Origin: Dehalococcoidia bacterium
Lineage (GTDB): Bacteria; Chloroflexota; Dehalococcoidia; Lucifugimonadales; CATQGZ01
DNA length: 64,000 bases
Reading direction: 5' to 3'
Assembly (NCBI GenBank): GCA_965223945.1
Contig: CBDCXW010000001.1
Coordinates: 320,207 to 384,206 of the forward strand
The position numbers were made by a program, and so were the translations under genes. Each line of letters starts with the position of its first letter. The stretch's first letter is position 1. Below are positions 55,554 to 60,249 of the stretch, one piece after another. The notes under the pieces are model-generated. The model made no database searches. It worked only from the letters and a program-made list of their open reading frames with translations, and was not told the origin of the DNA.

Positions 55554-56453
55554 ATGAACATCCTCGTTTCAGGCTCCACAGGCTTCATCGGCTCATCTCT
55601 CGTCCCGTATCTCGTCTCCTCGGGCCACGACGTTACGCGTCTGGTCAGGCGCGAGCTCGGAAGTGAGGAACCGGAGGTCCGCTGGGACCCGGCGGCGGGA
55701 ACCATTGAATCCTCTGCCTTAAGGGGGACCGATGGCGTAGTCCACCTTGCGGGTGAGAGCGCGGTAGGCCGGTGGACCGCCCGCAAGAAGGCGCGCATTC
55801 TGGAAAGCCGGGCGAACGGGACGAGGATGCTCTGTCAGGCACTTGGAGACCTCAATCCGCCTCCCAGAGTACTTATCTGCGCCTCCGGGCTTGACTTCTA
55901 CGGGGACAGAGGAGACACGCTGGTGTCGGAGGACACAGATCCCGGCAGCGGATTCCTCGCGGAGGTGACGGCGGCATGGGAGGCCGCGACGAAGCCCGCC
56001 ACCGACGCTGGCATCAGGGTGGTGAGGGCCCGATTGGGCATGGTCGTGGGCAATGGCGGCGGCGCACTCTCCAGGATGCTGCCAGCGTTCAGACTTGGAC
56101 TGGGCGGACGATTCGGAGGAGGCCGCCAACACGTCAGCTGGCTCTCACTCACGGACCTCGTCCGCGTGGTTCACCACATCCTGGTGACGGACTCACTCGA
56201 TGGGCCGGTAAACGTCTCCACGCCGATGCCGGTCACGAACGCGGAGTTCGCCAAGACCCTCGGCCGCGTCCTGTCCAGGCCTGCCGTTCTCCCAGTTCCG
56301 GCTTTCGGACTGCGGCTGGCCCTAGGAGAGATGGCCAGCATGGTACTGGCCAGCGTCAGGCTGGACCCCTCGAAGCTGGTCAGGTCCGGCTTCGAGTTCC
56401 GTTATCCGGAGCTCGAAGATGCGCTGCGTACCGAGTTGGGATACCTGAGGTAG
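55554..56453 (+). CDS. NAD-dependent epimerase/dehydratase family protein (YfcH/TIGR01777-like)
   Basis: Begins MNILVSGSTGFIGSSL (Rossmann fold). The C-terminal region is typical of the DUF1731-containing subgroup. Confidence 0.8.
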   Translation: MNILVSGSTGFIGSSLVPYLVSSGHDVTRLVRRELGSEEPEVRWDPAAGTIESSALRGTDGVVHLAGESAVGRWTARKKARILESRANGTRMLCQALGDLNPPPRVLICASGLDFYGDRGDTLVSEDTDPGSGFLAEVTAAWEAATKPATDAGIRVVRARLGMVVGNGGGALSRMLPAFRLGLGGRFGGGRQHVSWLSLTDLVRVVHHILVTDSLDGPVNVSTPMPVTNAEFAKTLGRVLSRPAVLPVPAFGLRLALGEMASMVLASVRLDPSKLVRSGFEFRYPELEDALRTELGYLR

Positions 56454-56467
56454 AAGTGGCTTAAGGC

Positions 56468-57523
56468 CTACGCACCCAGCCGGGCGTGGGCCCTCCTGAC
56501 AAGCTCCACGGTTTCAGGCCAGCCGATGCAGGCATCCGTGATCGACACTCCGTAGTCCAGCTCTGCCGGGTCTCCCAGCGACTGGCTACCCTCGTTGATG
56601 TTGCCCTCAAGCATGAGGCCGACTACGCCGGGGTTGGACACGCGCTGCTCCATGACGTCATTGAAGACGACGGGCTGCATCCTGTGGTCCTTGTTCGAAT
56701 TGGCGTGTGAGCAGTCCACGATCAGGTTCGGGGCGAGACCGCGCTCCTCCAACAGCCTCTGCGCAGCGGCCACAGACTCAGCGTCGTAGTTGGGGCCTCT
56801 CTTCCCGCCCCGGAGGATCAGGTGAGCCCCCGGATTGCCCGTGGTCTTGACGACGGACGCGACGCCATCGTCATCGATGCCGAGAAAAACGTGCTCAGAC
56901 ATTGCGGCCACGATGCCGTCGAGCGCGATGTCCACGCTCCCGCCCGTGCCGTTCTTGAAGCCGATTGGCATGCTGAGGCCGCTCGCCATGAGCCTGTGTG
57001 GCTGACTCTCCGTGGTCCTCGCGCCAATCGCGCCCCACGAGATCATGTCCCCCAGATATTGGGGCGTGAACGCTTCTAGGAACTCCGTCGCGGCCGGCAG
57101 ACCCCGGGAGCAGACATCTATCAGAAACTGGCGAGCCCGCGCCATGCCTCCCTGCACATCGTAGGTCCCGTTCAGATTGGGGTCATTGATGAGCCCCTTC
57201 CACCCGACGGTCGTGCGCGGCTTCTCGAAGTAGACCCTCATGACGATCAGGATCCGGTCCTCGACATCTCTGGCGAGGGACGCCAAGCGCTCGGCGTAGT
57301 CAAGGCCCACCTCTGTGTCGTGAATAGAGCACGGGCCGACGATCATCAGCATCCGGCTGTCATGGCCGCTCAGTATCTCTTCGATCTGGCGGCGATGCCC
57401 GGCGACCTGGTCACTTAGAGCGTCCGGCAGAGCGTAGCGCTTCCAGTACTCGGACGGTGGGTCGAGTCGGGTTATGCTCTCGACTCTGACATTGTGTATC
57501 GCTGACTTCTCGATCTGGACCAT
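56468..57523 (-). CDS. 3-deoxy-7-phosphoheptulonate (DAHP) synthase, class I
   Basis: Contains IVGPCSIHD, EKPRTTVGWKGLINDP, GARTTESQ and DCSHANS. The start ATG 57523 (MVQIEK) has GAGAGGAG upstream. The track's TTG at 57541 would lie inside the terminator U-tract. Confidence 0.9.
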   Translation of the reverse strand: MVQIEKSAIHNVRVESITRLDPPSEYWKRYALPDALSDQVAGHRRQIEEILSGHDSRMLMIVGPCSIHDTEVGLDYAERLASLARDVEDRILIVMRVYFEKPRTTVGWKGLINDPNLNGTYDVQGGMARARQFLIDVCSRGLPAATEFLEAFTPQYLGDMISWGAIGARTTESQPHRLMASGLSMPIGFKNGTGGSVDIALDGIVAAMSEHVFLGIDDDGVASVVKTTGNPGAHLILRGGKRGPNYDAESVAAAQRLLEERGLAPNLIVDCSHANSNKDHRMQPVVFNDVMEQRVSNPGVVGLMLEGNINEGSQSLGDPAELDYGVSITDACIGWPETVELVRRAHARLGA

Positions 57524-57539
57524 CTCTTCTCCTCTCAAC

Positions 57540-57570
57540 AAAAAAACCCCAACCGCTGCCGGTCGGGGTC
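57540..57570 (-). terminator. Rho-independent terminator 16 nt upstream of the DAHP synthase start codon
   Basis: Minus-strand RNA is GACCCCGACCG-GCAG-CGGUUGGGG-UUUUUUU: a 9-bp stem including one G-U pair, a 4-nt loop and a 7-U tract. Confidence 0.8.
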
Positions 57571-57870
57571 TCGATCGTTCCGTTTTCTTTAGCTGTTACA
57601 TTTGAACGCGGAGCGTCAAGACCTCGCCGGCGCGCAACTGCGCGCCACTGACGTAGAAATAGTACCCACTGAAGGTATCCCCGTTGCTCATCGTCAATAG
57701 AGCGTACCCATATGGGCGCCTCAATGTCAACTTCAACGGGGTATCCCATTCTACTACTATGCCACTGGTCAGAGCCTTGCAGCAGTTCTTCGCGCTACCC
57801 GCAGATGTCAGAGGGGTCAGCGTGTGTTGGTATAATGCGGCTACAGTCCAGGGGTGAGGTCGACTCAGCA
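57571..57870 (-). promoter_or_regulatory. Candidate leader/attenuator region of the DAHP synthase gene
   Basis: AT-richer non-GC3-biased sequence. An ORF ends at 57596 and contains the codon run TAC TAT TTC TAC (57664-57653). It is followed by hairpin GGCGCGC-AGTT-GCGCGCC (57646-57629), then a segment CGGCGAGGTC (57629-57620) complementary to the 5' arm of the terminator. Confidence 0.45.
57828..57836 (+). promoter_or_regulatory. Extended -10 promoter element TGGTATAAT for the ABM gene
   Basis: Perfect TATAAT at 57831-57836 preceded by TGn, 33 nt upstream of the ATG at 57870. Confidence 0.5.
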
Positions 57871-58211
57871 TGATTTCGATTTTCGTGAGCATCAGGGTCA
57901 AGCCAGGGATGCGAGACCAGTTCGTGGAGGCGTCGAAGGGTGACGCCGTGGGCTCGGTCCGGGACGAACCCGGGTGCTTCCGGTTCGACGTGTTGACGGA
58001 CGATTCGGACCCAGACCTGGTCCATCTGTACGAAGTCTACGAGGACCAGGCTGGCTTCGACGTACATCGGACAATGCCTCACTTCACCGAGTGGGCAGAC
58101 AAGGTGGCCGACTGGCGTACCGGGGACGTGACGGTCGTGAGTATGACCACCGCGTTCCCGTCGGATGCCGGCTGGAGGCACCAGAAGCCTCACCTGGTTG
58201 ACGCCGGCTAA
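57870..58211 (+). CDS. Antibiotic-biosynthesis-monooxygenase (ABM) domain protein
   Basis: 113 aa with a ferredoxin-like pattern: ISIFVSIRVKPGMRDQFVEA...EPGCFRFDVLTD...LVHLYEVYEDQAGFDVHRTMPHF. Confidence 0.75.
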   Translation: MISIFVSIRVKPGMRDQFVEASKGDAVGSVRDEPGCFRFDVLTDDSDPDLVHLYEVYEDQAGFDVHRTMPHFTEWADKVADWRTGDVTVVSMTTAFPSDAGWRHQKPHLVDAG

Positions 58212-58386
58212 CGTCCTTTCCGATCAGCCACAGCTGGTCAGCCCCACGTCGACTCTGGCAGCGGGGCCGTGGGCTTGACCCCGAACTCCGCCGGAAGGAC
58301 GTCCGCCGTAAGTTGGCGGCAACTCCTCAATTGTCCGGTCATGCCGCCTGTGCTATTCTAGGCCATTCCCCAGCGAGGTCACCGCC

Positions 58387-60249
58387 GTGTTTGTAGTCGG
58401 CACCGCCGGCCATGTCGATCACGGTAAGTCCACACTCGTACAGGCGTTGACGGGCATAGACCCAGACCGCCTCAAGGCCGAGAAAGAGCGGGGGATGACC
58501 ATCGACCTCGGCTTCGCCTGGCTACAGCTGCCGAGCGGCAACGAGGTCAGCATCGTCGACGTTCCCGGTCACGAGCGGTTCGTAAACAACATGCTGGCCG
58601 GGGTCGGCGGCATCGACCTTGCGCTCCTGGTTGTGGCGGCAGACGAGGCTGTCATGCCCCAGACCCGGGAGCATCTGGCCATACTGGACCTTCTCCACGT
58701 GAACTGTGGAATCGTCGCGGTGACCAAGAGGGACCTCGTCGATGAAGACTGGCTGGAGCTCGTCATGGCGGACGTCGAGGAGCTGATGGAGGGGACGGCC
58801 CTCGAAGGCTCTCCCGTGATTGCGGTATCGGCCGTGACCCAGGAAGGGATCGACGATCTGGTCTCTACCATCGACTCTCTGCTTCAGCAGACGGAGCCCA
58901 AGCGCGACCTCGGCCGCCCGCGCTTGCCGATTGACCGCTCGTTCGCGATGTCCGGGTTCGGAACGGTTGTCACAGGCACGCTGATCGACGGCGCCCTTGA
59001 CGTCGGACAGGAGGCCGATCTCGTCCTGTCAGGTCGGAAGACCCGAGTCAGGGGCCTGCAGGCGCATCGAAAGAGGCTCGATCACGCCGAGCCCGGCCGC
59101 AGGGTGGCTGCGAACCTGGCAGGCGTGCCGCACGACGGCATTACAAGGGGCGAGGTGTTGACTACGCCCGGCTGGCTCTCGCCGACTATGGCTGTCGATG
59201 TACGCCTGCGAGTGCTCGACCAGGCTCCAGGGCACCTCAAACACAACATGCACGTCACGCTTCACACCGGGAGCAGCGAGGTCGTCGGCAGGCTCAGGCT
59301 CCTGGAGGGCGACCGGATAGAGCCCGGAGCGGCCACTTGGGCCCAGATCAAGCTCGGCTCACCTGTGGCGGCGGCCAGAGGCGACTACTTCGTAATCAGG
59401 TCCAACCAGACGACACTCGGCGGCGGCAGCATCGTCGAGACCCATGCGAAGCGCCACCGCCGCAGCTACGCACCCACCCTCAAGCGGCTGTCTATCATGG
59501 ATGAGGGTTCAGACAGGGAGGTGTTGCTAGCCACGATCGCCTCGTCCGAACCCGCCGAGTTCACGTCGGTCGTCAACCGTGCCAACCTCCAACCAGCGGC
59601 GGCCAGAACAGCGCTCAAGGCGATGGCCGGGGAGAGGCTGGTCGTGGTCGTGGGCGTGCGGCCGCCGGGGCCTGGTGTGCGGATGTACACTGGCGCGGGC
59701 TGGGCCGCCGCAGCCGCCCGGGCACGCGAGTTCCTGGACGATTATCACCGGCAATTCCCCCTAAGGACAGGGGCGCCCAAGGAGGAGCTCCGGAGCAGAA
59801 TGGGAATGACCCCTCATATCTTCAACGATGTGATGCCACGGCTAAGGGACGAGGGAGTGCTGGCCGAGGAGGGCACGCTCGTGCGCGCCGCGGATCACCA
59901 GCCCGGCCTTACCGAGGAAGACCAGAAGATCACCCAGGCATACATAGAACTGTTGGAGGCATCTCCCTATTCCCCTCCTTCGGACTCCGGTATCGATGCG
60001 GAGCTGCTGAACCTGCTGGCGGACCAGGGAAGGGTCGTGAAAGCAAGTGACAGCATCGTGTTCGCCGCCTCCGCATACAACGAAATGGCTGATAGAATAT
60101 CCGCGCACATCAAGGAGCGAGGCGAGATCACGGTCGCGGACGTCAGGGACATGTTCGGTACGAGCCGAAAGTACGCCCTCGCGATCATGGACTACCTCGA
60201 CCATCAGCGCATAACCCGCCGCGTGGGAGACGCCAGAGTCCTGCGTTAG
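58387..60249 (+). CDS. selB: Selenocysteine-specific translation elongation factor
   Basis: 620 aa. Motifs [13 protein letters not shown] (G1), DVPGHERF (G3) and TKRD (G4), with a long C-terminal winged-helix region ([39 protein letters not shown]). Confidence 0.9.

What the first reader, a model, noticed from the sequence alone, without database searches (positions are those of the whole stretch)
57523..57870. Probable transcription-attenuation leader with a Tyr/Phe codon run in front of DAHP synthase
A canonical intrinsic terminator lies on the coding strand only 16 nt upstream of the DAHP synthase ATG. It has a 9-bp GC-rich stem, a GCAG loop and a 7-U tract at 57570-57540. The aro gene can therefore only be transcribed by read-through.
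Upstream, an ORF ending at 57596 contains the consecutive aromatic codons TAC TAT TTC TAC (Y-Y-F-Y, 57664-57653). An internal ATG would give a 31-aa peptide, MSNGDTFSGYYFYVSGAQLRAGEVLTLRVQM.
Right after that run come two elements. The first is a perfect 7-bp hairpin, GGCGCGC-AGTT-GCGCGCC (57646-57629). The second is a segment CGGCGAGGTC (57629-57620) that can pair with the 5' arm GACCCCGACCG of the terminator; I count 9 bp with one mismatch and one bulge.
A ribosome stalled at the Tyr/Phe codons would mask the first hairpin arm. This is the classical logic of amino-acid-responsive attenuation (trp, pheA, his leaders), applied here to the first enzyme of aromatic biosynthesis.
The region is AT-richer and lacks the GC3 bias of real genes in this window, so the long 91-101-aa ORF is probably not a protein gene.
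Weak points: there is no clear Shine-Dalgarno before the 31-aa ORF, and the promoter is not identified. TTGACA-18-TACGCT just upstream would give a nearly leaderless transcript.
Basis: partly seen in the sequence, partly recalled or inferred. Interest (0 to 1): 0.6.

Follow-up and report, generated by a model that had tools for sequence, protein, structure and literature searches.

The report
Tyr/Phe leader-peptide attenuator before DAHP synthase
A short upstream reading frame rich in tyrosine and phenylalanine codons, followed by switchable RNA hairpins and a terminator, most likely lets this Chloroflexota-like bacterium turn on the first enzyme of aromatic amino-acid synthesis only when those amino acids run short; this is a classical mechanism, seen here in a new lineage.

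Summary
On the minus strand, a TTGACA-18-TACGCT promoter sits 9 nt before an ATG. That ATG opens a 31-codon ORF with Tyr-Tyr-Phe-Tyr at codons 10-13. Next come a GC hairpin, a 74-nt antiterminator that takes in the terminator's 5' arm, and an intrinsic terminator with 7 U. This is the only canonical terminator in the 64 kb. A Shine-Dalgarno site and a class I-alpha DAHP synthase gene follow 16 nt later.

Ten distinct orthologous loci (51-91% enzyme identity) keep the same layout. They share the promoter-to-start spacing (5-9 nt, usually 9), an aromatic codon run at codons about 9-16, both strands of the antiterminator, and a terminator with compensatory changes. The peptide's length, frame and stop codon are not conserved. 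Folding with a ribosome placed on the mRNA gives read-through when it stalls at the last aromatic codon and termination when it reaches the stop codon.

Rfam, Pfam and NCBIfam hold no matching family. The closest described system is the Corynebacterium glutamicum aroR-aroF attenuator. Leader peptides on leaderless transcripts are known in Deinococcus, Streptomyces and mycobacteria. Verdict: real, and a new member of a known kind. Nothing was tested experimentally.

The parts
57725..57730 (-). -35 hexamer TTGACA of the leader promoter
   Evidence: Read. TTGAC is invariant in 11 aligned leaders.
57701..57706 (-). -10 hexamer TACGCT (TAnnnT), 18 nt after the -35 and 9 nt before the leader ATG. 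The predicted TSS is the purine at about 57694, giving a 0-3 nt 5' UTR.
   Evidence: T, A and the last T are invariant. The 9-nt spacing to ATG/GTG is seen in the window, L161-L167 and L170. The TSS is inferred, not mapped.
57596..57691 (-). Leader ORF, 31 codons plus TAA: MSNGDTFSGYYFYVSGAQLRAGEVLTLRVQM
   Evidence: No Pfam or NCBIfam family. Equivalent ORFs occur in all relatives, with variable length and stop codon.
57653..57664 (-). Regulatory codon run TAC TAT TTC TAC (Tyr10 Tyr11 Phe12 Tyr13). There is one more Phe codon at 57673-57671.
   Evidence: An aromatic run sits at the same codon positions in 10 distinct relatives, with TAC/TAT, TTC/TTT and Y/F interchanges.
57623..57656 (-). Anti-antiterminator (segment 1:2) hairpin. 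The core is GGCGCGC-AGUU-GCGCGCC at 57646-57629. A lower stem pairs the last aromatic codons with GGCGAG.
   Evidence: MFE fold. RNAalifold consensus on 11 leaders. 85.6% of cells are paired, against 25-51% for slid controls.
57558..57631 (-). Antiterminator (segment 2:3). The 5' strand CCGGCGAGGUCUUGACGCUCCG lies inside the leader ORF. The 3' strand CGGAACGAUCGAGACCCCGACCGG contains the terminator's 5' arm. The leader stop codon lies in the apical part.
   Evidence: Folds of RNA truncated before the terminator's 3' arm. RNAalifold predicts it independently. 90.9% of cells are paired, against 26-51% for slid controls, and 3 pairs carry double changes.
57540..57571 (-). Intrinsic terminator (segment 3:4): stem ACCCCGACCG / CGGUUGGGGU, loop GCAG, 7 U (57546-57540)
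   Evidence: 98.5% of cells are paired and 3 pairs carry compensatory changes across 11 leaders.
57524..57536 (-). Shine-Dalgarno region GAGAGGAGAAGAG of the DAHP synthase gene
   Evidence: Read. Purine-rich and conserved in relatives.
56468..57523 (-). Regulated gene: class I-alpha 3-deoxy-7-phosphoheptulonate (DAHP) synthase, 351 aa, monocistronic. The next gene downstream is convergent.
   Evidence: Pfam PF00793 and NCBIfam TIGR00034 aroFGH. ORF map.
57870..58211 (+). Context only: divergent ABM-domain gene with its own extended -10 promoter (TGGTATAAT, 57828-57836). It shows that no co-directional gene lies upstream of the terminator.
   Evidence: Promoter read.

Best explanation
This is a ribosome-mediated (leader-peptide) transcription attenuator that controls a class I-alpha DAHP synthase gene in response to charged tRNA-Tyr and tRNA-Phe.

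Transcription starts 0-3 nt before the leader start codon, so the 31-codon ORF is translated as a leaderless or near-leaderless message.

- When Tyr and Phe are plentiful, the ribosome runs through the 5' strand of the antiterminator (57631-57610) to the stop codon at 57598. The antiterminator cannot form, the terminator hairpin (57571-57544) forms, and RNA polymerase stops at the U-tract 16 nt before aroG.
- When Tyr-tRNA or Phe-tRNA is scarce, the ribosome stalls on Tyr10-Tyr11-Phe12-Tyr13. That holds open the anti-antiterminator hairpin (57656-57623). Its 3' strand then pairs with the terminator's 5' arm to form the 74-nt antiterminator, and polymerase reads into aroG.

Shown here: every sequence element, their conservation, the mutually exclusive pairings, and the dependence of the predicted folds on ribosome position. 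Inferred: the transcription start, translation of the ORF, termination in vivo, and which amino acid is sensed.
For: Anatomy and coordinates.

Rarity: there are only two runs of at least 4 aromatic codons in 128,000 six-frame codons, and shuffle P is about 0.005. This is the only canonical terminator in 64 kb.

Gene identity: the regulated gene is aroFGH-type DAHP synthase.

Conservation: relatives with 70-91% enzyme identity were fetched from their contigs. Together with L017 they all show:
- TTGACA-16/18-TAnnnT, then a start codon (ATG or GTG) 5-9 nt later, 9 nt in most;
- an aromatic run (GYYSYF, QYYYSYF, DFYYYS, RYYSYF, SYYFYF, GYYRHF, SYDPYF, AYFYF, FYGYYWLF);
- the conserved blocks GCCGGUGARGUCUUGA and UCGAGACCYCRACCGG;
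- a terminator.

RNA-level constraint: in L167 and L170 the ORF stops at UGA inside GCCGGUGA, and in L169 it stops before that block. The block is therefore conserved as RNA and not as peptide.

Structure support:
- terminator: 98.5% paired, 3 compensatory pairs;
- antiterminator: 90.9% paired against 26-51% for slid controls, and predicted independently by RNAalifold;
- extended 1:2 hairpin, which includes the last aromatic codons.

Ribosome-mask folding in the window gives P(terminator) of 0.74 with no ribosome, 0.00 with Tyr13 in the A site, and 0.96 at the stop codon. In all 11 leaders the truncated transcript forms the antiterminator when the ribosome sits on the aromatic codons. In ten of them it disappears when the ribosome is at the stop; in L169 only its outer stem is lost.

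Specificity: 23 of 162 aroG loci have an aromatic mini-ORF plus a terminator on the sense strand. None has one on the antisense control.

Precedent:
- C. glutamicum aroR (Phe-Tyr-Phe) upstream of aroF (PMC11802643, PMC4046766);
- leaderless leader peptides in Deinococcus deserti, Streptomyces lividans and mycobacteria (PMC4007540, PMC8079986, bioRxiv 10.1101/834739).
Against: - There is no Shine-Dalgarno site and no mapped transcription start. Translation of the ORF rests on conserved spacing alone.
- At equilibrium the terminator wins in most relatives wherever the ribosome is placed. The switch therefore has to be kinetic, as it is (from my own knowledge) in the E. coli trp leader.
- In the window, a stall at Tyr10 or Tyr11 with a 13-nt mask hardly changes the terminator probability (0.72). 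Only Phe12 and Tyr13 do.
- Covariation in the antiterminator is modest because both strands are highly conserved.
- Some relatives have weak runs (SYDPYF, GYYRHF).
- Intrinsic terminators are rare in this genome, and their efficiency with this polymerase is unknown.
Confidence: 0.8

Rival explanations
1. This is a transcription attenuator whose antiterminator/terminator choice is set by something other than a translating ribosome, such as an RNA-binding protein, a metabolite or an uncharged tRNA. The aromatic codons would be incidental, or part of a binding site.
For: There is no SD before the ORF. The conserved blocks are RNA-level. The last 'codons' UACUUUA are themselves one arm of a conserved hairpin. 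In L017 the untranslated RNA already favours the antiterminator.
Against: - No Rfam family, T-box included, matches even at E<=10.
- The aromatic triplets always lie in frame with a start codon at a near-fixed distance from the -10 box.
- They vary by synonymous TAC/TAT and TTC/TTT changes and by Y/F swaps.
- Unrelated leaders of other clades, with quite different RNA sequence, also encode aromatic runs before aroG.
- The stop codon is always placed so that a terminating ribosome covers the antiterminator's 5' strand.
Confidence: 0.08
2. The 31-codon ORF is an independent small-protein gene with its own terminator, and aroG is transcribed from a separate promoter.
For: GC3 of the 31-codon ORF (0.78) resembles that of real genes. 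The C-terminal AGEVLTL is conserved in seven leaders.
Against: - Only 16 nt, holding the SD, separate the U-tract from the aroG ATG.
- No promoter-like site was found on this strand between 57523 and 57700.
- The conserved 'AGEVLTL' DNA is read in another frame, or lies after a stop codon, in L167, L169 and L170.
- The peptide has no family.
Confidence: 0.04
3. The long 101-aa (or 112-aa) minus-strand ORF is a real gene, and the terminator simply ends it.
For: The ORFs are open.
Against: - The upstream part has GC3 0.59, against 0.72-0.82 in genes.
- There is no Pfam or NCBIfam hit.
- Its 5' end overlaps the divergent ABM gene, and the conserved -35/-10 promoter lies inside it.
- Sequence upstream of the leader ATG is not conserved in relatives.
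Confidence: 0.02
4. It is a chance co-occurrence of a hairpin plus T-run and a few AT-rich codons in an AT-richer intergenic region.
For: The intergenic region is AT-richer (GC about 0.54), which favours TTY/TAY triplets. A second aromatic run (FYYY, + strand, 57749) in the same region looks like chance.
Against: The whole architecture is conserved in ten distinct loci. The antisense control gave 0 of 162. Shuffle P is about 0.005.
Confidence: 0.01

Closest known systems
Corynebacterium glutamicum aroR-aroF attenuator (Neshat et al. 2014, as described in PMC11802643 and PMC4046766)
   Same: A leader peptide with adjacent Phe/Tyr codons (Phe-Tyr-Phe) lies directly upstream of a DAHP synthase gene. 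Expression rises when ribosomes stall at those codons.
   Different: It is in a different phylum (Actinomycetota, against a Chloroflexota-like genome). Homology could not be tested because no aroR sequence was available here. The run differs (Y-Y-F-Y; the family consensus is roughly YY(F/S)YF). The C. glutamicum element is reported to respond to Phe and not Tyr, whereas Tyr codons dominate here. One paper (PMC7356990) describes aroR control as translational.
Classical enterobacterial leader-peptide attenuators (trpL, pheL-pheA, pheM-pheST, hisL)
   Same: The logic of four segments is the same: regulatory codons in or next to segment 1, mutually exclusive 1:2, 2:3 and 3:4 pairings, an intrinsic terminator, and a stop codon placed so that a terminating ribosome blocks segment 2.
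   Different: There is no Shine-Dalgarno site; the start codon lies 0-3 nt from the predicted TSS. The antiterminator is unusually long (74 nt) and the stop codon lies in its apical part. The regulated gene is the pathway entry enzyme, which in E. coli is controlled by the TyrR/TrpR repressors (PMC11802643). No Rfam leader family matches.
Leaderless leader-peptide attenuators of Deinococcus deserti, Streptomyces lividans and mycobacteria (PMC4007540, PMC8079986, bioRxiv 10.1101/834739)
   Same: A short regulatory ORF begins at or within 0-3 nt of the transcript's 5' end, downstream of a TAnnnT -10 box. ATG or GTG starts are used. A terminator or hairpins follow.
   Different: Those examples control trp, leu, ilv, cys, thr and tRNA synthetase genes. 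None of the passages read describes one on a DAHP synthase gene or in Chloroflexota.
T-box leaders on aromatic amino-acid genes of Firmicutes
   Same: They also use an antiterminator/terminator choice that reports tRNA charging, upstream of amino-acid genes.
   Different: T-boxes bind uncharged tRNA directly and need no translation. No T-box match was found in the region at E<=10.

Membership tests
Ribosome-mediated (leader-peptide) transcription attenuator | A short ORF in the 5' leader with clustered codons for the end-product amino acid(s) | tested here: met
   The 31-codon ORF has YYFY at codons 10-13. The run is conserved at codons about 9-16 in ten distinct relatives.
Ribosome-mediated (leader-peptide) transcription attenuator | An intrinsic terminator between the leader ORF and the structural gene, on the same strand | tested here: met
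   57571-57540, with 7 U, lies 16 nt before the ATG. Compensatory changes occur in relatives.
Ribosome-mediated (leader-peptide) transcription attenuator | An antiterminator that is mutually exclusive with the terminator and whose 5' strand is covered by a ribosome at the stop codon | tested here: met
   In silico only. The 57631-57558 hairpin appears in truncated folds and in the consensus. It is abolished when the mask reaches the stop codon.
Ribosome-mediated (leader-peptide) transcription attenuator | An anti-antiterminator (1:2) that a ribosome stalled at the regulatory codons disrupts | tested here: met
   In silico only. The 57656-57623 hairpin includes the last aromatic codons. In the window the effect is seen only for stalls at Phe12 or Tyr13 with a 13-16 nt mask.
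Ribosome-mediated (leader-peptide) transcription attenuator | The leader ORF is actually translated (a functional initiation signal) | tested here: inconclusive
   There is no SD. The -10 box lies 9 nt before the ATG/GTG in the window and seven relatives, and 5-6 nt before it in the other three. A purine sits at the expected TSS, which suggests a 0-3 nt leader. This is consistent with leaderless leader peptides elsewhere (PMC8079986, PMC4007540). No TSS or ribosome data exist.
Ribosome-mediated (leader-peptide) transcription attenuator | Read-through rises when the cognate aminoacyl-tRNA is limiting | not testable with these tools
   This needs Term-seq, a reporter, or an in vitro coupled assay.
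Ribosome-mediated (leader-peptide) transcription attenuator | The regulated gene belongs to the biosynthesis of the amino acids encoded by the run | tested here: met
   Class I-alpha DAHP synthase: TIGR00034 at 454 bits, PF00793.
C. glutamicum aroR-type leader (homology) | Sequence or structure similarity to aroR and its attenuator RNA | not tested
Only the published description (F-Y-F peptide upstream of aroF) could be compared.
Rfam leader and T-box families (Trp_leader, His_leader, Leu_leader, Thr_leader, T-box and others) | A match to the covariance model | tested here: not met
   There were no gathering-score matches in the window or in 15 related loci. The sensitive scan of 57300-58100 gave only three sub-threshold matches to unrelated families (Methylosinus-1, mir-4887, P36), each far below its gathering score.

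The most novel reading that the evidence does not exclude
The element may be one representative of an undescribed, phylum-spanning habit. Class I-alpha DAHP synthase genes would commonly be controlled by Tyr/Phe(/Trp)-codon leader peptides, and not by TyrR-like repressors.

- Chloroflexota would carry a leaderless form.
- Desulfobacterota-like genomes would carry an SD-dependent form, often with tandem terminators.
- Acidobacteriota (Ca. Geothrix) may carry one too.

None of these is in Rfam. The Chloroflexota version would also be a rare case of a strong intrinsic terminator used purely for regulation in a genome that otherwise almost lacks such terminators.
Probability: 0.45. Interest if true: 0.5.

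Novelty: new member of a known kind. Interest (0 to 1): 0.4.

Why it matters
- It extends classical leader-peptide attenuation, in its leaderless form, to uncultured Chloroflexota/Dehalococcoidia-like bacteria. It also shows that the committed step of the shikimate pathway is under tRNA-charging control there.
- It supplies a defined RNA family not in Rfam: 11 aligned leaders and covariance model R1. This could be used to annotate MAGs.
- It indicates that analogous aromatic leaders precede aroG in several other phyla.
- It gives a ready test case for intrinsic termination and leaderless translation in a lineage with no genetic system.
- It does not reveal a new mechanism.

Tried and rejected
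- **Rfam.** Gathering thresholds on the window and on 15 loci, plus a sensitive scan of the region, found nothing relevant. T-box and known leader families are rejected.
- **Pfam and NCBIfam.** Searches with the 31-aa and 101-aa products and with two other leader peptides found nothing.
- **Contig scans.** The genome and metagenome scans with the enzyme returned only relatives of 64% identity or less. Their leaders are analogous but cannot be aligned. Closer relatives had to be reached through the protein database and contig look-ups. Three look-ups (P0011, P0017, P0026) were not on record.
- **Equilibrium folding.** Folding full leaders with a ribosome mask shows the switch clearly only in the window, L017 and partly L165. 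In other relatives the terminator always wins. I therefore used folds truncated before the terminator's 3' arm, which mimic co-transcriptional folding.
- **Window-specific antiterminator.** Its apical part is not conserved. Only the consensus core is claimed.
- **Covariance model R1.** It found no further members among 66 sources beyond its training set. The leaders of L009, L022, L037 and L084 are analogous but belong to other RNA families.
- **Second copy.** None was found in the window.
- **The FYYY run on the + strand.** Rejected as a leader: it has no start codon, lies upstream of that gene's promoter, and is not conserved.
- **The 58212-58386 region.** A tRNA-Sec or other structured RNA was looked for and not found.
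- **Literature.** Searches found no description of aroG leaders in Chloroflexota or delta-proteobacteria, but subscription journals are not covered.
Full report
**What is in the sequence.** On the minus strand the region reads as follows.

- -35 hexamer TTGACA (57730-57725), an 18-nt spacer, and -10 hexamer TACGCT (57706-57701).
- Nine nt later, ATG at 57691. It opens a 31-codon ORF, MSNGDTFSGYYFYVSGAQLRAGEVLTLRVQM, with stop TAA at 57598-57596.
- The consecutive codons TAC TAT TTC TAC at 57664-57653, which are codons 10-13.
- The perfect hairpin GGCGCGC-AGTT-GCGCGCC (57646-57629).
- A terminator with core stem ACCCCGACCG/CGGUUGGGGU, loop GCAG and seven U (57546-57540).
- Sixteen nt later, holding the Shine-Dalgarno GAGAGGAG, the ATG (57523) of a 351-aa protein.

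That protein is a class I-alpha DAHP synthase (PF00793; TIGR00034 aroFGH, 454 bits). The terminator scan finds the hairpin at 57572-57543.

**Surroundings.** The gene upstream is divergent: 57870-58211 on the + strand, an ABM-domain protein with its own TGGTATAAT promoter at 57828-57836. The gene downstream of aroG is convergent (an epimerase/DUF1731 protein, 55554-56453 +). So aroG is monocistronic, and the terminator has no co-directional gene to terminate.

The 101-aa ORF that contains the 31-codon ORF is not a gene:
- its upstream part has GC3 0.59, against 0.72-0.82 for neighbouring genes;
- it has no Pfam or NCBIfam family;
- it overlaps the ABM start;
- the conserved promoter lies inside it.

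**Is it more than chance?**
- In all six frames of the 64-kb window there are only two runs of four or more aromatic codons, against 0.8 expected. One is this YYFY. About 0.5% of shuffles of the 347-nt region contain such a run.
- With a strict definition (perfect stem of at least 6 bp, at least 4 G-C pairs, at least 5 T), this is the only intrinsic terminator in the window on either strand. It lies in a 5' leader and not at a gene end.
- The folding z-scores of the region are -2.6 and -2.9.

**Known families.** Rfam has no gathering-score match in the window or in 15 related loci. A sensitive scan of 57300-58100 gives nothing relevant, so this is not a T-box or a catalogued leader.

**Relatives.** Scans of genome and metagenome contigs with the enzyme gave relatives of at most 64% identity, mostly labelled Dehalococcoidia or Chloroflexota MAGs. 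The window's origin in that group is inferred from those labels alone.

Even these distant loci carry small ORFs with aromatic runs followed by terminators before aroG:

| Locus | Aromatic run |
|---|---|
| L009 | ...PFYFYAY... |
| L017 | ...RFYGYYWLF... |
| L022 | ...NYFTYYYYF... |
| L037 | ...RYFGYYFY... |
| L084 | MKKFFYTYYYFRL |

The protein database held closer enzymes at 70-91% identity. Their contigs all show the same leader as the window.

- **Promoter:** TTGACA, 16-18 nt, TAnnnT. In the window and seven of the relatives, exactly 9 nt then lead to ATG or GTG. In the other three a start codon lies 5-6 nt after the -10 box. The seventh base after the -10 box is a purine in nearly all of them.
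- **Aromatic run at codons about 9-16:** GYYSYF (L161), QYYYSYF (L162), DFYYYS (L163), RYYSYF (L164), SYYFYF (L165 and L169), GYYRHF (L166), SYDPYF (L167), AYFYF (L170).
- **Conserved RNA blocks:** GCCGGUGARGUCUUGAYGCUCC and GGAACNNUCGAGACCYCRACCGG.
- **Then:** the terminator, an SD, and aroG.

The codons vary by TAC/TAT, TTC/TTT and Tyr/Phe swaps in a fixed frame, which is what a coding constraint for aromatic residues predicts.

The rest of the peptide is not constrained. In L167 and L170 the ORF ends at UGA inside GCCGGUGA, and in L169 it ends before that block. In the window and six relatives the same DNA is read as AGEVLTL or a close variant. The block is therefore conserved as RNA.

**The three alternative structures.**
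- *Terminator.* Across 11 leaders, 98.5% of cells are paired and three pairs carry compensatory changes such as CCCC/GGGG to CCUC/GAGG. Slid controls give 25-62%.
- *Antiterminator.* When the RNA is truncated before the terminator's 3' arm, every one of the 11 leaders folds into the same long hairpin. It has an outer stem GCCGG/CCGGC and a middle stem GUCUUGA/UCGAGAC, and it contains the terminator's 5' arm. In the window this is 57631-57558. RNAalifold predicts the same consensus independently. Of its cells, 90.9% are paired, against 26-51% for slid controls, and three pairs carry double changes (7 of 500 shuffles reach that). The apical part of the window's version is not conserved.
- *Anti-antiterminator.* On full-length leaders RNAalifold predicts, besides the terminator, an extended hairpin. 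Its 5' arm includes the last aromatic codons (UACUUUA). Its 3' arm is GCGCC-GGUGARGU, the 5' strand of the antiterminator. It is 85.6% paired, against 25-51% for slid controls. In the window this hairpin spans 57656-57623.

**Ribosome-position modelling.** Bases up to 13 nt beyond the first base of the A-site codon were forced to stay unpaired.

| Ribosome position (window leader) | P(terminator) |
|---|---|
| No ribosome | 0.74 |
| Tyr10 or Tyr11 in the A site | 0.72 |
| Phe12 in the A site | 0.59 |
| Tyr13 in the A site | 0.00 |
| At the stop codon | 0.96 |

With a 16-nt mask, Phe12 also gives 0.00.

In most relatives the very stable terminator (-20 to -24 kcal/mol) wins at equilibrium whatever the mask. 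The decision must then be kinetic, as it is (from my own knowledge) for the E. coli trp leader.

The co-transcriptional proxy shows the expected behaviour in all 11 leaders. With the ribosome on the aromatic codons, the terminator's 5' arm is already sequestered in the antiterminator. With the ribosome at the stop codon, the antiterminator is gone; in the window its energy goes from -38.9 to -3.7 kcal/mol. L169 is a partial exception, where only the outer stem is lost. L167 and L170 add a clear 1:2 pairing between the aromatic codons and GCCGGUGA in the untranslated state.

**How it most likely works.**
- Transcription starts at about 57694-57691.
- A ribosome loads on the (near-)leaderless AUG.
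- With charged tRNA-Tyr and tRNA-Phe plentiful, the ribosome translates through the antiterminator's 5' strand to the stop codon. The terminator forms and polymerase stops 16 nt before aroG.
- With those tRNAs scarce, the ribosome stalls on codons 10-13. It opens the 1:2 hairpin and frees its 3' strand to capture the terminator's 5' arm, so polymerase reads through.

The elements, their conservation and the fold predictions are shown. The TSS, translation, in vivo termination and the identity of the sensed amino acid are inferred.

**The missing SD.** It is a conserved family trait.
- In S. lividans, leaderless transcripts are defined as having 0-3 nt leaders. They have TAnnnT boxes 4-9 nt before a purine TSS, use ATG or GTG, and include most leader peptides (PMC8079986).
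- D. deserti has 14 predicted leaderless leader peptides (PMC4007540).
- Mycobacteria use leaderless polycysteine ORFs as attenuators (bioRxiv 10.1101/834739).

**Comparison with what is known.**
- The closest described system is C. glutamicum aroR. It is a Phe-Tyr-Phe leader peptide upstream of the DAHP synthase gene aroF, induced by ribosome stalling under Phe limitation (PMC11802643, PMC4046766). One paper calls the control translational (PMC7356990).
- The logic is also that of trpL, pheL and hisL.
- I found no description of such a leader in Chloroflexota or on aroG outside Corynebacterium in the searchable library. That library omits most subscription journals.
- Homology to aroR could not be tested.

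**Wider distribution.** In a scan of 162 aroG loci, 23 have a start-codon-bearing mini-ORF (8-50 aa, at least 4 of 6 residues aromatic) followed by a terminator on the sense strand. None has one on the antisense control. Besides the Chloroflexota type, there are two others.
- A distinct SD-dependent type occurs in Desulfobacterota-labelled loci (L050, L062) and in unassigned metagenome contigs (L104, L119, L123, L140, L154). Its peptides end in ...GLP(A/V)(V/L)(C/R), and several have two tandem terminators.
- One case occurs in Ca. Geothrix (L078).

Covariance model R1, built from the window's family, matches only that family and L017. The other leaders are therefore analogous and do not belong to the same RNA family. 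The window holds no second copy.

**Verdict.** The element is a Tyr/Phe-codon, probably leaderless, leader-peptide attenuator of a DAHP synthase gene. That makes it a new member of a well-known kind, absent from Rfam, in a lineage where such control had not (to my knowledge) been described. It is of moderate interest and involves no new mechanism.

Noticed in passing
window 57749-57760 (+ strand): TTC TAC TAC TAT (FYYY) is the only other run of at least 4 aromatic codons in six frames of the 64 kb, and it lies in the same intergenic region. There is no in-frame ATG/GTG/TTG before it. It lies upstream of the ABM gene's promoter and is not conserved in L161, so it is probably chance in AT-richer DNA.
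   Followed up: partly
whole window, both strands: By a strict scan (perfect stem of at least 6 bp, at least 4 G-C pairs, at least 5 T), the aroG-leader terminator is the only canonical intrinsic terminator in 64 kb. Gene ends in this genome apparently do not use them.
   Followed up: partly
L050, L062, L104, L119, L123, L140, L154 (upstream of aroG, about -290 to -30): These loci carry a different, SD-dependent aromatic leader family. L050 and L062 are labelled Deltaproteobacteria/Desulfococcaceae; the rest are unassigned. Example peptide: MQYSAGRHSFYFGYYYFYAGLPAVC. The peptides end in GLP(A/V)(V/L)(C/R). In L062, L104, L140 and L154, two terminators lie in tandem, and the second hairpin is GGCCGTGG...CCACGGCC followed by a T-run. 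None is in Rfam.
   Followed up: partly
L078 (Ca. Geothrix odensensis), about -170 to -25 before aroG: A mini-ORF MSHRFTYPYWSPRADRAWRGQGPS, with Phe, Tyr and Trp codons, is followed by the strong terminator CCCCGATCC...GGATCGGGGTTTTT. This looks like an aromatic leader in Acidobacteriota.
   Followed up: no
L001-L003, L081-L083 and L004, L005, L007 (between an aroH-type chorismate mutase gene and aroG): These loci have aromatic-rich ORFs (...EYFGYTYTGGLFTYGRSYRS*, ...DNYRWFYICRRRA*) and structured RNA but no U-tract terminator. Control may be Rho-dependent or translational in these Dehalococcoidia.
   Followed up: no
window 58212-58386: The hairpin-rich intergenic region between the ABM gene and selB (58387-60249) includes a promoter-like GTGACC-16-TAGAAT on the minus strand (58382-58355). 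ARAGORN finds no tRNA (tRNA-Sec included) and Rfam finds nothing significant.
   Followed up: partly
L017 2712-2906 against window 57540-57730: L017's enzyme is only 51% identical to the window's, yet its terminator (ACCCCAACCGGCAGCGGTTGGGGT) and antiterminator layout are nearly the same. The leader is better conserved than the gene it controls, or the aroG genes are paralogues.
   Followed up: no
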